A DNA stretch of 12,067 nucleotides from a virus (taxonomy: Duplodnaviria > Heunggongvirae > Uroviricota > Caudoviricetes): IMG/VR virus record IMGVR_UViG_638341196_000009; one strand, given 5' to 3'. Below, piece by piece: positions 9,001 through 12,000 of this stretch (positions within the stretch are counted from its first letter, which is position 1; each line of letters starts with the position of its first letter). Made by a program: the position numbers.

Positions 9001-12000
9001 CGAAGCCATAATGCGCATCACTACCGGTTTTATTTCTGCCGGAAGTTTTCTCAACGCCGCCACACGATCGCACCGACTGAGTGCATAATCTGCCAGTAAT
9101 TCTGTTGCCCGCGCCCTGTCATTCATACTGATGCCCATTTTCCCCAGGAACGCAGAAAACCCCATCTCAGCCCGATTCTGTGTCATGCCCTGCGCGGCCA
9201 TCACATCAGTGATACTCAGCGCATCTTTTGACGTTGAGGCCGATGCATCGGTCAGGCCAGGGGATTTTGGGGAGTAGTATTTCGGTAAATCTTCCAGTTT
9301 CATTTTTTGACCTGCTCTTCATGCATTATGGGGTAAATCTTCACCCCCATACGTCCACCAGATACTGGCTGACCACGAACGATATTGATTTCATCAAACT
9401 GCTCATCGTCCATTAACACTCCCGCATGCGTCAGCGCATCCAGCGGTGCTTTCAGGATATTGTCCAGGTCGCGACGACGCTTATCCGGTGGCTCTGCAAT
9501 CACCTTTATCGCCAGCCTTCCGGACAGGCTTAATTTCAGCCGCTGCTGGCGAACAATAAGCGCCACAGCCCGGCGATAACGCTTTCCCTCCTCCGAGATA
9601 AAATATGTGCTGCCACGGCGTCGCCAGTAAGTGTTCACCGTCGGCGGGTAAGGTAAAACCAAATCTATGAGCATCAGTCACCTCTTTTACCCAAGCACGC
9701 CAGTTGCAAAGGCGTGATCAAGAAAACGAAAAATTAAATCAACCTGAGAACCATGCTTTTCTTCGAACGCCAGCGGATCCGCATGAAGCTCGTTGTGATG
9801 CTCCCGACACAGCGGTAGCGTGAAAATATCGTGAGATTTTGTCCCCATTCCGCCCTGACCATGACCAATCAGGTGATGGGGATCGTCGGCTGGCTTACCA
9901 CAACACGCACACGGCTGTGTCTTCACCCAGCGTGTGTATTTCTCGTTAACCCAGCGGCGACGTTTAGGTCGTTTCATGAAAGATTCCGGAGACTCAGGAT
10001 CAACGGCAATGCTGACCACCGTCTTTTCCTGTGGTGGGTTCTGTTGCTGGTGGGCGTGAGGCAGCGGCGCAAGATTTTTTGTGCGCTGTTTCAGTATGCT
10101 GGTGGCGGTCTGCTCTCCCGGTACGATGTCGCTTTCACGGTACATTGAGCGGATTTTTTCCGCACGCAACCCAAGCGAACGACGTAATACCGCTTCCGGT
10201 AGCGCGTCCGCCACCTGATTGCGGACCGCCCACCAGGATAATTCAGCCAGAGATAATTCACGCTCCTGCGTACCGCTTATTGCGTGACCGATGACGTCAA
10301 TCATCCATGCTGACAGGTTTTGATGAGCAAGTTGCTCGAGTGATTCGGATGTCTGGTCACGCAGCTGGTTGTCGCAGTGCCAGCACAACACCATTGCGCC
10401 GGTACCATAACGGTGAATGACGGTTTCGCTGTGATGATAATCGCCGTGTGGCCACTGGCAGGATTTAATATGGCGCAACAGCCAGTCAGACAATGCACCA
10501 GCACCACCAGCAGCACGAATCACCCGTGCGTTACTGAAAAACGGCAGCAATGTTTTGTCTTCCACCAGCGGCTGGCGAGCGGCAGGAACGACCCCGGACG
10601 GCAGATTACGCATGCTTTTCGGTTCCGGCTCCACCAGTAACCGGGTATTGTGGAATACCGGCATGGATTCACGGCCCGGCTTAACGATCACCAGCCCGAG
10701 TTCCGGTACCAGAACAGGTCGAAGTAATACCCGCACGTTACCTCCAGATGCGTTGCTGGAATGTGCGGGACGGACGCGGTGGGCGTTCGGAGTAAGGCAA
10801 TCTGACTGAGATTATCCAGTGACGGTAGTCGAGGCTAAGGGCTTTTTTAACCTCGTATCCGCGCCTGCGGTAACACTGAATTATCCATTCAGCCTGCTCT
10901 TCAGTGCATGGTGGATGCTGGAACCAGTCCGATTTGAATGCATGAAAACGCCGTCCGCACCTGCTGGCAAAGACGGCAGAATCATCAGAATTGTGTAATT
11001 TGGTATCGTGCGCCATCGGTTGTCTCTGCTGGCGCAGCAGGTGCCAGTTGTTCAGGCTGGCGTATAAAGTATAAATAAACTGGTTCCAGTGTAAAGCCCC
11101 TACATTAATGGAATAAAAGTCAAACAACAGATTGTTGGGATAAACACAACGCTTATTATTAAAAGCGATTAGATAAATTAAATTTTAATGTTATGCAATT
11201 TTACCAGATCACCATAACATCTCGTTTGAAACCACCGAAACAACAACCATATCAATATTGATTATGTTAAAGTGAGTAAATATGGAAAACAACAAATCTG
11301 CACATTACGCTCCTTTTTTATCTGTGATACTTTTTGTTTTATGCTGTGTGTGGGCATTATTTTTATAAAAATATTTACAGATAAAATAAACCCGCCGAAG
11401 CGGGTTAAGTGCGGGTGCATTGAGGATGCCTGACACATCAGAGGTGGCGAGGGATTTCTCCCTCGCCGGGTCTCTTACTCCTCAGGTTCGTAAACTGTGA
11501 AGACAGCGACCTCCGTCTGGCCGGTTCGGATTCGTACCTCGCAGAGGTCTTTCCTCGTTACCAGTGCCGTCACTATGACGGTTAAACAGATGACGATCAG
11601 GGCGATTAACATCGCCTTTTGCTGCTTCATAGCCTGCTTCTCCTTGACCTTTCGGTCCGTAAGAGGCTAATCTCTATGTGTCGCATAGATATGGCCTCAG
11701 ATTAATGTTAAACGTCTTGCAGGACGCGTAATGTTACCTGGGGCTTTTCTCTATCTGCCGTTGGTGTTCATGCCCGAGGCAGATAGCCTCAAGCACCCGC
11801 AGTCATTCTACTTAACTAAGATTTCCCCGCAAACCGTTTTTGTCCAGCACAATAAATATCCAACTAAACCAATGGAGTTCGCTGTATTTACCGCCAGTAT
11901 TCAATGCACATGACCGCCATGAACACCCCTAAAAAAAGGGCATTTATATATCCAAATATTAATATCAAAACATCAACTTTTTCCATATACCTTGCTGTGA

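What the first reader, a model, noticed from the sequence alone, without database searches (positions are those of the whole stretch)
11381..11790. hok/sok-type type I toxin-antitoxin locus not reported by the ORF track
A 51-aa Hok-family toxin gene (11475-11630) with a strong Shine-Dalgarno is preceded by a short leader ORF whose TGA overlaps the hok ATG. A plus-strand promoter-like element (TTGACC-18-TAATCT) is placed so that its transcript would be antisense to the leader start region, and a UUCG-loop terminator follows the toxin gene. A 9-bp inverted repeat (CTATCTGCC at 11751-11759 and GGCAGATAG at 11778-11786) in the presumed mRNA leader could be one of the regulatory stem-loops typical of hok mRNAs. 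Many chromosomal hok loci are decayed; this one looks regulated and intact at the level I can read.
Basis: partly seen in the sequence, partly recalled or inferred. Interest (0 to 1): 0.5.

Follow-up and report, generated by a model that had tools for sequence, protein, structure and literature searches.

The report
Intact prophage hok/sok toxin–antitoxin locus
This is a complete copy of the well-known hok/sok "host-killing" toxin–antisense RNA module carried by a lambda-like prophage of Escherichia coli; it is real and looks functional, but it is already annotated (as hokD) in many genomes and a 91%-identical copy (hokW-sokW) has been tested in the laboratory, so it is ordinary.

Summary
On the minus strand, 11475-11630 encodes a 51-aa Hok/Gef toxin (Pfam E 2.6e-22), 50/51 identical to K-12 HokD. 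Its leader matches Rfam RF01794 (100.8 bits; gathering score 59). All elements of the plasmid R1 paradigm are present:
- own promoter;
- 5' tac element;
- ucb and dcb boxes;
- mok leader ORF with its own SD;
- antisense Sok promoter and a ~69-nt Sok RNA;
- hok SD;
- 3' protective hairpin;
- fbi element;
- UUCG terminator.

In silico, the full-length mRNA closes by a 12-bp tac-fbi pairing (P>=0.9; z -7.4) with the mok SD sequestered. The 3'-trimmed form switches to tac-ucb and SD-dcb, as in R1.

The 601 bp around the locus are 100% identical to at least 17 complete E. coli genomes annotated hokD. Phage 933W mokW/hokW/sokW is 91% identical, and its Sp5 counterpart is an experimentally shown TA system.

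It is not a relBE-hokD operon tail. K-12 hokD shares only the last 16 nt of the leader.

The one peculiarity is a 19-codon mok ending in an AUGA overlap, a minority allele (~12-16%). Verdict: already known; interest low.

The parts
11805..11833 (-). hok mRNA promoter: -35 TTTGCGG (11827-11833), -10 TAGAAT (11805-11810); predicted start G11798
   Evidence: Sequence. The same elements are conserved in 933W. Rfam model position 1 aligns to 11798. Not called by the consensus scan. Transcription is inferred.
11385..11798 (-). full-length hok mRNA (~410 nt)
   Evidence: MFE -170.1 kcal/mol, z -7.4 against shuffles. 95.9% of cells are paired across 68 distinct relatives, against ~40% when partners are slid.
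11787..11798 (-). tac (translational activator) element, GGGUGCUUGAGG
   Evidence: Pairs with fbi in the full-length fold (12 bp, P 0.90-1.00). Pairs with ucb in the 3'-truncated fold.
   Evidence: It is in the Rfam consensus structure. Three of its 9 pairs show compensatory double changes in relatives (helix 3).
11740..11746 (-). ucb (upstream complementary box / anti-SD), AAGCCCC
   Evidence: Pairs with the mok SD in the full-length fold and with tac in the truncated fold.
11695..11698 (-). mok Shine-Dalgarno GAGG
   Evidence: Homologous to the R1 GAGG mok SD (alignment; R1 mutational data in PMC9841398).
11627..11686 (-). mok-type leader ORF, 19 codons, with TGA overlapping the hok ATG (ATGA)
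   Evidence: The frame differs from 933W mokW because of a 2-nt deletion and a 1-nt insertion. The allele is present in 14/87 and 13/109 relatives.
11663..11668 (-). dcb (downstream complementary box), AGCCUC
   Evidence: Pairs with the mok SD in the truncated fold.
11644..11673 (+). Sok promoter TTGACC-18-TAATCT
   Evidence: Positionally homologous to the R1-type TTGCGC-17-TATCCT and to the sokW promoter. Mutation of the sokW -10 abolishes antitoxin activity (PMC8621323). Not called by the consensus scan.
11680..11748 (+). predicted Sok antisense RNA (~69 nt)
   Evidence: Ends transferred from the annotated 71-nt sokW of 933W. The fold has a 5' tail of ~13 nt (3 weak bp within it in the MFE) plus a long hairpin and UUUU; -23.5 kcal/mol, z -3.2.
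11640..11645 (-). hok Shine-Dalgarno AAGGAG
   Evidence: It lies inside the mok ORF.
11475..11630 (-). hok toxin gene, 51 aa (HokD/HokW type)
   Evidence: Pfam PF01848 E 2.6e-22. 50/51 identical to K-12 HokD. 40% identical to R1 Hok. Annotated hokD in identical genomes.
11446..11467 (-). GC-rich hairpin GGCGAGGGAGAAAUCCCUCGCC; presumed 3' end and protector of the processed mRNA
   Evidence: One pair shows a compensatory change (helix 17). The role is inferred from R1 (PMC9841398).
11413..11425 (-). fbi (fold-back inhibition) element CCUCAAUGCACCC
   Evidence: 12 bp with tac. 98.5% paired in relatives, and all changes there keep G-U pairs.
11389..11406 (-). intrinsic terminator with UUCG loop and U-tract

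Best explanation
[quoted passage not shown] It sits in the early-right (nin) region of a lambdoid, Qin/Rac-like prophage of E. coli.

Proposed working:
1. A stable ~410-nt hok mRNA is made leftwards from about 11798.
2. As full-length RNA it is closed by pairing of its 5' end (tac) with the 3' fbi element. The ucb box then masks the mok SD. The RNA is neither translated nor bound by Sok.
3. Slow 3' trimming back to the GC hairpin at 11446-11467 removes fbi. The 5' end refolds onto ucb, and the mok start region becomes accessible.
4. As long as the short-lived ~69-nt Sok RNA is made (from TTGACC-18-TAATCT, rightwards from about 11680), it pairs with the mok start region. The duplex is destroyed by RNase III.
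5. If Sok synthesis stops, ribosomes start at mok. Sok synthesis could stop through loss of the element, a transcription shut-off, or prophage induction.
6. The ribosomes read 19 codons through the hok SD and stop at the UGA that overlaps the hok AUG. That allows hok translation.
7. The 51-aa Hok inserts in the inner membrane and depolarises or lyses the cell.

Shown here: presence, arrangement, family membership and the two alternative folds (computed). Inferred from R1 and hokW-sokW experiments: transcription, processing, RNase III cleavage, translational coupling and toxicity.
For: - Toxin: Pfam HOK_GEF E 2.6e-22; PHROG 251.
- Leader: Rfam RF01794 at 100.8 bits against a gathering score of 59, covering 11628-11798.
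- Identity to annotated sequence: the 601 bp are 100% identical to at least 17 complete E. coli genomes annotated hokD. 4721 of 5426 genomes hold a related place.
- Closest annotated locus: 91% identical over the locus to 933W mokW/hokW/sokW.
- Experiments on hokW-sokW of Sp5: HokW is toxic, sokW from its own promoter neutralises it, and this depends on RNase III and Hfq (PMC8621323).
- Full-length fold: tac-fbi 12 bp with P 0.90-1.00, ucb on the mok SD, z -7.4.
- Truncated fold: tac-ucb and SD-dcb. This is the R1 scheme described in PMC9841398.
- Sok fold: single-stranded 5' tail plus terminator hairpin.
- Structure in relatives: 95.9% of cells paired against ~40% when slid, and 12 pairs with double changes against 4.7 in shuffles.
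- R1-type locus: folds with the same tac-fbi topology using different bases.
- Short mok: R1 data show mok needs to be translated only up to the hok initiation region (PMC9841398), so a 19-codon mok ending at the hok AUG is compatible.
Against: - No expression data exist for this copy.
- The consensus scan calls neither promoter. The Sok -10 TAATCT matches only 3 of 6 consensus positions.
- The leader ORF differs from the majority form (57-nt offset, in frame, 70 aa) by a 2-nt deletion next to the mok AUG. That deletion shrinks the Sok-target loop to CGACA, without a YUNR motif.
- Chromosomal hokA, hokB and hokC loci did not give post-segregational killing in earlier work, as summarised in the preprint 10.1101/2025.08.07.668861.
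- The prophage around the locus is mosaic and may be defective.
Confidence: 0.9

Rival explanations
1. The locus is a recognisable but functionally silent (decaying) hok/sok copy. The indels after the mok AUG and the small target loop would uncouple hok from mok, or lock the mRNA, so that no Hok is ever made.
For: - The window allele carries a 2-nt deletion and a 1-nt insertion relative to 933W, which shift the mok frame.
- Its mok-start hairpin loop has 5 nt and no YUNR motif, unlike about half of the other alleles.
- Earlier work found chromosomal hok loci inactive in post-segregational killing (cited).
- K-12 hokD itself is a truncated remnant.
Against: - The allele recurs in 14/87 and 13/109 independent phage contigs, and as 100% identical copies in at least 17 complete genomes from different hosts and countries.
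- All other elements are unchanged, and the few substitutions keep pairs as G-U.
- The 19-codon ORF still crosses the hok SD, which is what R1 genetics requires.
- Relatives use offsets of 55, 56, 57 and 58 nt, so the frame is evidently free to vary.
Confidence: 0.2
2. It is the 3' end of a relBE-hokD operon, as in K-12 Qin, with hok expressed only by read-through and without its own antisense control.
For: The Hok protein is 50/51 identical to K-12 HokD, and the gene lies in the syntenic place next to a DUF968 (YdfU-like) gene.
Against: - Homology with K-12 starts only 16 nt upstream of the hok ATG. In K-12 everything 5' of that point is the relE 3' end, whereas here it is a full hok leader with promoter.
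- The genome identical over the 601-bp hok stretch has no relBE upstream.
- The ORF at the window edge (11888-12067) is a hydrophobic 59-aa peptide without a family hit, not RelE.
Confidence: 0.02
3. The module is intact, but its main role in this context is not maintenance of the element. It would instead help phage-mediated lysis and progeny release on induction, or abort infection by other phages when host transcription is shut off.
For: - hokW-sokW in Sp5: sokW disappears after mitomycin C, HokW appears about 1 h before the R endolysin, and deletion halves phage release (PMC8621323).
- The locus lies in a lambdoid prophage between the early genes and the Q antiterminator gene that switches on late/lysis transcription.
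Against: - The prophage here may be defective. The lysis genes are followed directly by tail-fibre fragments, and no complete E. coli genome matches the whole window. A release function could therefore be moot.
- Nothing in the sequence discriminates between these roles.
Confidence: 0.35

Closest known systems
hokD as annotated by RefSeq/PGAP in E. coli chromosomes (e.g. WP_000813256.1 in NZ_CP042899.1, Rac-site prophage)
   Same: 100% identical DNA over 601 bp, with the same 51-aa protein.
   Different: None in sequence. RefSeq annotates only the toxin CDS, not mok, Sok or the RNA elements.
mokW/hokW/sokW of Stx2 phage 933W / Sakai prophage Sp5
   Same: About 91% DNA identity over the locus. 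Same promoter, tac, ucb, sokT hairpin, SDs, 3' hairpin and fbi. Experimentally a type I TA (PMC8621323).
   Different: - mokW is 70 aa and in frame with hokW (57-nt offset). Here mok has 19 codons and stops at the hok AUG (56-nt offset).
- The loop at the mok start is CUGAACA there and CGACA here.
- Hok differs at 4 of 51 residues near the C-terminus.
- The sequence after fbi differs: no UUCG terminator aligns in 933W.
hokD (relF) of E. coli K-12 cryptic prophage Qin
   Same: Hok is 50/51 identical. The hok SD, CDS, 3' hairpin, fbi and terminator are shared. It sits in the same neighbourhood next to a DUF968/ydfU gene.
   Different: K-12 lacks the promoter, tac, ucb, Sok target, mok and Sok promoter; the relE 3' end abuts 16 nt before the SD region. 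The window holds the complete form.
hok/sok of plasmid R1 (parB), the paradigm
   Same: Same order of elements and the same two-state folding logic. The blocks GCUUGAGGCU.UCUGCC, AGCCCC, GAGGC, UAGCCUCUUAC and CAAGGAGAAG are conserved. The Sok promoter is in the same place.
   Different: - Hok is only 40% identical.
- In R1 mok has 70 codons, out of frame with a 58-nt offset (PMC9841398).
- The 3' UTR is longer in R1.
- R1 is plasmid-borne with proven post-segregational killing.
hokD-type loci of P1-like phage-plasmids (IncY)
   Same: About 89% DNA identity and the same architecture.
   Different: 58-nt mok offset giving a 68-aa out-of-frame Mok, a different terminator, and an extrachromosomal prophage as carrier.

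Membership tests
[quoted passage not shown] | Small Hok/Gef toxin: about 50 aa, an N-terminal transmembrane helix and a conserved TRK.LCE.R motif | tested here: met
   Pfam PF01848 78.6 bits against a cut-off of 22. The alignment with R1 Hok keeps LTRK-LCE-R-R-G-EVA-F-YE.
[quoted passage not shown] | Structured mRNA leader of the family (sequence plus secondary structure) | tested here: met
   RF01794 100.8 bits against a gathering score of 59, with the full model 1-157 matched at 11628-11798.
[quoted passage not shown] | mok leader ORF with its own SD that is translated across the hok initiation region | tested here: met
   GAGG-8 nt-AUG at 11686. 19 codons cover the hok SD and end in AUGA at the hok start. 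It is shorter than the classical 70-codon mok, but R1 genetics needs translation only up to the hok TIR. Translation itself was not tested.
[quoted passage not shown] | cis-encoded antisense Sok RNA with its promoter inside the mok/hok leader, complementary to the mok start region | tested here: inconclusive
   A promoter-like TTGACC-18-TAATCT lies at the position homologous to the R1 and sokW promoters. The predicted 69-nt RNA folds as tail plus hairpin plus U-tract. The consensus scan does not call the promoter. No transcript data.
[quoted passage not shown] | Long-range 5'-3' pairing (tac-fbi) closing the full-length mRNA | tested here: met
   12 bp between 11787-11798 and 11413-11425 in the MFE, P 0.90-1.00. 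98.5% paired in 68 relatives. Same topology with other bases in an R1-type locus. Computed, not probed.
[quoted passage not shown] | Refolding after 3' trimming: tac-ucb stem and mok SD-dcb stem | tested here: met
   The fold of 11438-11798 gives exactly these pairings. The processing itself is not testable here.
[quoted passage not shown] | Toxicity of Hok, neutralisation by Sok, RNase III cleavage of the duplex | not testable with these tools
   Shown for the 91%-identical hokW-sokW (PMC8621323) and for R1 (PMC9841398), not for this allele.
relBE-hokD operon (K-12 Qin arrangement) | hok immediately downstream of relE, without its own leader | tested here: not met
   A full leader and promoter are present. 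K-12 homology is limited to 16 nt upstream of the ATG. No relBE in the identical genome.

The most novel reading that the evidence does not exclude
The only part not already textbook concerns one patch, 11672-11694. This patch surrounds the mok AUG and is the target of the Sok 5' tail.
- It is hypervariable: about 18 alleles among otherwise near-identical prophage hokD/hokW loci.
- The hairpin there is preserved across alleles.
- The mok frame drifts freely, with offsets of 55-58 nt.

This could be an allelic specificity code that keeps the several hok/sok copies of one genome from cross-neutralising each other. The window would carry a distinct 'mini-mok' allele: 19 codons, AUGA termination-reinitiation and a 5-nt loop without a U-turn motif.
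Probability: 0.3. Interest if true: 0.35.

Novelty: already known. Interest (0 to 1): 0.1.

Why it matters
Little is at stake for discovery. The element belongs to the best-studied type I toxin-antitoxin family, and the identical sequence is already annotated as hokD.

It is useful as annotation:
- It shows that the ORF track misses small toxin genes.
- It shows that genome annotation records only the toxin and not mok, Sok or the RNA switches.
- It shows what the complete form of the truncated K-12 hokD (relF) locus looks like.

The allelic variation at the Sok target site, and the free drift of the mok frame, may interest people working on cross-talk between multiple hok/sok copies.

Tried and rejected
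- **Genome-contig scan.** A scan with the 15-base pattern GCTTGAGGCTNTCTGC returned almost only chance hits in unrelated phyla. Only L068 (E. coli) and L072 (Kluyvera) were real hok loci.
- **Promoter scan.** The simple promoter scan found neither the hok nor the Sok promoter. Support for both rests on homology only.
- **Whole-window search.** A search against complete E. coli genomes found no genome with at least 80% of the window in one place, so the exact source remains unidentified.
- **Co-resident allele test.** I asked whether two loci in one genome carry different Sok-target alleles. Only 5 isolate genomes had two loci: 4 differed and 1 was the same. The random expectation of sharing is 0.12, so the test is uninformative.
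- **YUNR motif.** I looked for a YUNR U-turn motif as a universal feature of the target loop. Only about half of the alleles have one in the predicted loop, so its absence here cannot be read as a defect.
- **relBE-hokD operon tail.** Rejected.
- **Not run.** I did not use the large protein searches or structure prediction. A 51-aa membrane peptide with a clear family assignment would gain nothing from them.
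Full report
**What is there.**
- Reading the region on both strands shows a 51-aa ORF on the minus strand at 11475-11630: MKQQKAMLIALIVICLTVIVTALVTRKDLCEVRIRTGQTEVAVFTVYEPEE.
- It matches Pfam HOK_GEF (E 2.6e-22, 78.6 bits against a cut-off of 22) and PHROG 251 'MokW-like host killing' (E 2.8e-32).
- It is 50/51 identical to HokD (RelF) of E. coli K-12 and 40% identical to Hok of plasmid R1.
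- An Rfam scan of the whole window places family RF01794 ('sok antitoxin') on the same strand at 11628-11798. The complete model is matched at 100.8 bits against a gathering score of 59, E 2.2e-22. Despite its name, that model describes the hok mRNA leader to which Sok is antisense.

All are present at the stated coordinates.
- The SD AAGGAG lies at 11640-11645.
- A leader ORF of 19 codons runs from the ATG at 11686 to a TGA at 11627-11629, which overlaps the hok ATG as ATGA.
- The plus-strand TTGACC (11644-11649), 18 nt, TAATCT (11668-11673) is present.
- The UUCG-loop terminator at 11389-11406 is the only terminator-like site in 11250-12000.
- The 9-bp inverted repeat lies at 11751-11759 / 11778-11786.
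The mRNA 5' end lies at about 11798, and the hok promoter (-10 TAGAAT 11805-11810; -35 TTTGCGG 11827-11833) lies beyond it.
- The simple sigma-70 scan calls neither promoter. Both rest on positional homology with loci where they are annotated or tested.

**Relatives.**
- The 601 bp 11300-11900 are 100% identical to at least 17 complete E. coli chromosomes, in all of which PGAP annotates the CDS as 'type I toxin-antitoxin system toxin HokD'. 4721 of 5426 complete genomes hold a related place, with a median of 2 and a maximum of 9 per genome.
- In one identical genome the locus lies in a lambdoid prophage integrated next to ttcA (the Rac site). No relBE lies upstream.
- Among phages, the Stx2 phage 933W carries mokW/hokW and an annotated 71-nt sokW RNA at ~91% identity.
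- P1-like IncY phage-plasmids carry copies at ~89% identity.
- hokW-sokW of Sakai prophage Sp5 has been shown experimentally to be a type I TA system. HokW is toxic. sokW expressed from its own promoter neutralises it, and mutation of the sokW -10 abolishes this. RNase III and Hfq contribute. After mitomycin C the sokW RNA disappears, HokW accumulates in the inner membrane, and phage release is doubled relative to the deletion (PMC8621323).

**Relation to K-12 hokD.**
- Alignment with the Qin region of MG1655 shows identity from 16 nt upstream of the hok ATG through the CDS, the 3' hairpin, fbi and the terminator.
- Everything 5' of that point is, in K-12, the end of relE.
- The window therefore holds the complete form of a locus that is truncated in K-12.

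**Anatomy compared with the R1 paradigm.** A four-way alignment (window, 933W, IncY, an R1-type IncFII locus) shows these conserved blocks:
- the 5' end GCUUGAGGCU.UCUGCC (tac and the following stem);
- AGCCCC (ucb);
- GAGGC (mok SD);
- the mok AUG;
- UAGCCUCUUAC (dcb on the mRNA strand, and the Sok -10 region on the other strand);
- CAAGGAGAAG.AGGC.AUGAA (hok SD and start).

**Folding.**
- *Full-length.* The predicted full-length RNA (11798 to 11385) has an MFE of -170.1 kcal/mol, z -7.4.
  - Nucleotides 1-12 pair with 11413-11425 (tac-fbi, 12 bp, pair probabilities 0.90-1.00).
  - ucb pairs with the mok SD.
- *3'-trimmed.* Removing the 3' end back to the GC hairpin (11798 to 11438) switches the fold. 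tac now pairs with ucb and the mok SD with dcb.
  - This is the scheme described for R1: a closed, inert full-length form and an open, translatable, Sok-sensitive truncated form (PMC9841398).
  - In the computed truncated fold the SD is still paired with dcb. That agrees with the published description of an SD/dcb stem but does not by itself show accessibility.
- *Sok.* The predicted Sok RNA (11680-11748, with ends transferred from sokW) folds into a 5' tail of about 13 nt followed by a long hairpin and UUUU; the MFE draws 3 weak pairs within the tail. The energy is -23.5 kcal/mol, z -3.2.

**Comparative support for the structure.** I collected 80 IMG/VR loci through the Hok protein. I aligned the 68 distinct sequences, including the window, 933W, IncY, another E. 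coli and a Kluyvera locus.
- On the window's full-length structure, 95.9% of cells are standard pairs, against 36-43% when the 3' partners are slid.
- 12 pairs have changes on both sides, against 4.7 ± 1.2 in shuffles.
- The tac-fbi helix is 98.5% paired. The exceptions are the two relE-type loci without a leader, and its few substitutions all keep G-U pairs.
- The sequences are close relatives, so this is supportive rather than decisive.
- The R1-type locus adds a more distant comparison. It has the same tac-fbi topology with different bases (GGCGCUU/AAGCGCC against GGGUGCUU/AA-GCACCC).

**The one peculiarity.**
- Relative to 933W, the window has a 2-nt deletion right after the mok AUG and a 1-nt insertion further on.
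- The mok AUG therefore lies 56 nt before the hok AUG, and the leader stops at the hok start.
- Among relatives the offset is as follows.

| Offset (nt) | Form | First sample | Second sample, chosen by a leader DNA pattern |
|---|---|---|---|
| 57 | in frame, 70-aa MokW type | 63 | 91 |
| 56 | window type | 14 | 13 |
| 58 | R1/P1 type, out of frame | 3 | 5 |
| 55 | — | 1 | — |

- The Mok peptide is thus not conserved in any frame. [quoted passage not shown]
- A 19-codon leader that runs through the hok SD and terminates on AUGA is compatible with coupling, but this has not been tested.

**Hypervariable patch.**
- Column entropy over the alignment is near zero except for one patch at 11672-11694, around the mok AUG. 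This patch is complementary to the 5' tail of Sok.
- About 18 alleles occur. The window allele ATGCGACACATAGAGATT accounts for 12 of 109.
- Each allele keeps an outer SD-dcb stem and an inner hairpin that holds the AUG, while the loop varies. The window has the smallest loop (CGACA) and no YUNR motif; about half of the alleles have one.
- This may be a specificity determinant among co-resident copies.
- Only five isolate genomes in my samples had two loci: four differed and one was the same. The chance of sharing is 0.12, which is uninformative.

**Context.** The neighbours on the same strand are a small hypothetical gene, a DUF968 (YdfU-like) gene (Pfam E 4.4e-77), RusA, the Q antiterminator, two tRNAs, lysis genes and tail-fibre fragments. 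This is the right arm of a lambdoid prophage, and it resembles Qin. No complete E. coli genome holds the whole window in one piece, so the element is mosaic and perhaps defective.

**Verdict.**
- The locus is a complete member of the HokD/HokW branch of hok/sok, and nothing in its sequence suggests decay.
- It is already known. The identical sequence is annotated in RefSeq, the close homologue has been characterised, and a recent survey lists 44,248 Hok homologues with enrichment in prophages (preprint 10.1101/2025.08.07.668861).
- That same preprint recalls that chromosomal hokA, hokB and hokC loci failed to give post-segregational killing. Activity of this copy therefore remains an inference: I put about 0.9 on membership and mechanism type, and perhaps 0.65 on it being active in its host.
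- Interest is low, about 0.1.

Noticed in passing
window 11672-11694 (minus strand), and the same place in L126-L326: There is a single hypervariable patch around the mok AUG, which is the target of the Sok 5' tail, in otherwise near-identical hokD/hokW-type loci. About 18 alleles occur, with the hairpin architecture preserved. It may be a Sok/hok specificity determinant.
   Followed up: partly
window 11627-11686 and relatives: The mok reading frame is not conserved. The distance from the mok AUG to the hok AUG is 55, 56, 57 or 58 nt in close relatives. Mok is therefore in frame with Hok (70 aa), out of frame (67-68 aa), or, as here, a 19-codon peptide ending on AUGA.
   Followed up: yes
window 11486-11494 (minus strand): The Tyr47 codon of hok lies in UUUACGAAC, which resembles the tRNA-Arg(ACG) anticodon loop. 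A recent preprint reports TadA A-to-I editing (Tyr to Cys) at the equivalent position of the hokC, hokD and hokE mRNAs. The motif is retained here.
   Followed up: no
window 41-239 (minus strand): There is a full-length match to Rfam RF02111 'IS009' (221 bits). It lies inside the tail-fibre-assembly (tfaQ-like) ORF at 1-582.
   Followed up: no
window 7240-7430 (minus strand): There is a match to Rfam RF02076 'STnc100' (114.5 bits against a gathering score of 47). It lies between the lysis region and the tRNA genes.
   Followed up: no
window 8086-8162 and 8263-8338 (minus strand): Two prophage tRNA genes lie just downstream of the Q antiterminator gene: tRNA-Arg (TCT) and a CAT-anticodon tRNA. 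ARAGORN calls the second one Met, while RefSeq annotates the homologue as Ile. This pairing is typical of lambdoid and Stx-type phages.
   Followed up: partly
window 11888-12067 (minus strand): A 59-aa strongly hydrophobic ORF starts exactly at the window edge, upstream of the hok promoter. It has no Pfam or PHROG match and is not annotated in the identical RefSeq genome.
   Followed up: partly
window 1-12067: No complete E. coli genome contains 80% or more of the window in one place; the best is 77% in 6 pieces. The prophage segment is mosaic. Lysis genes are followed by tail-fibre fragments, which suggests a defective Qin-like element.
   Followed up: partly
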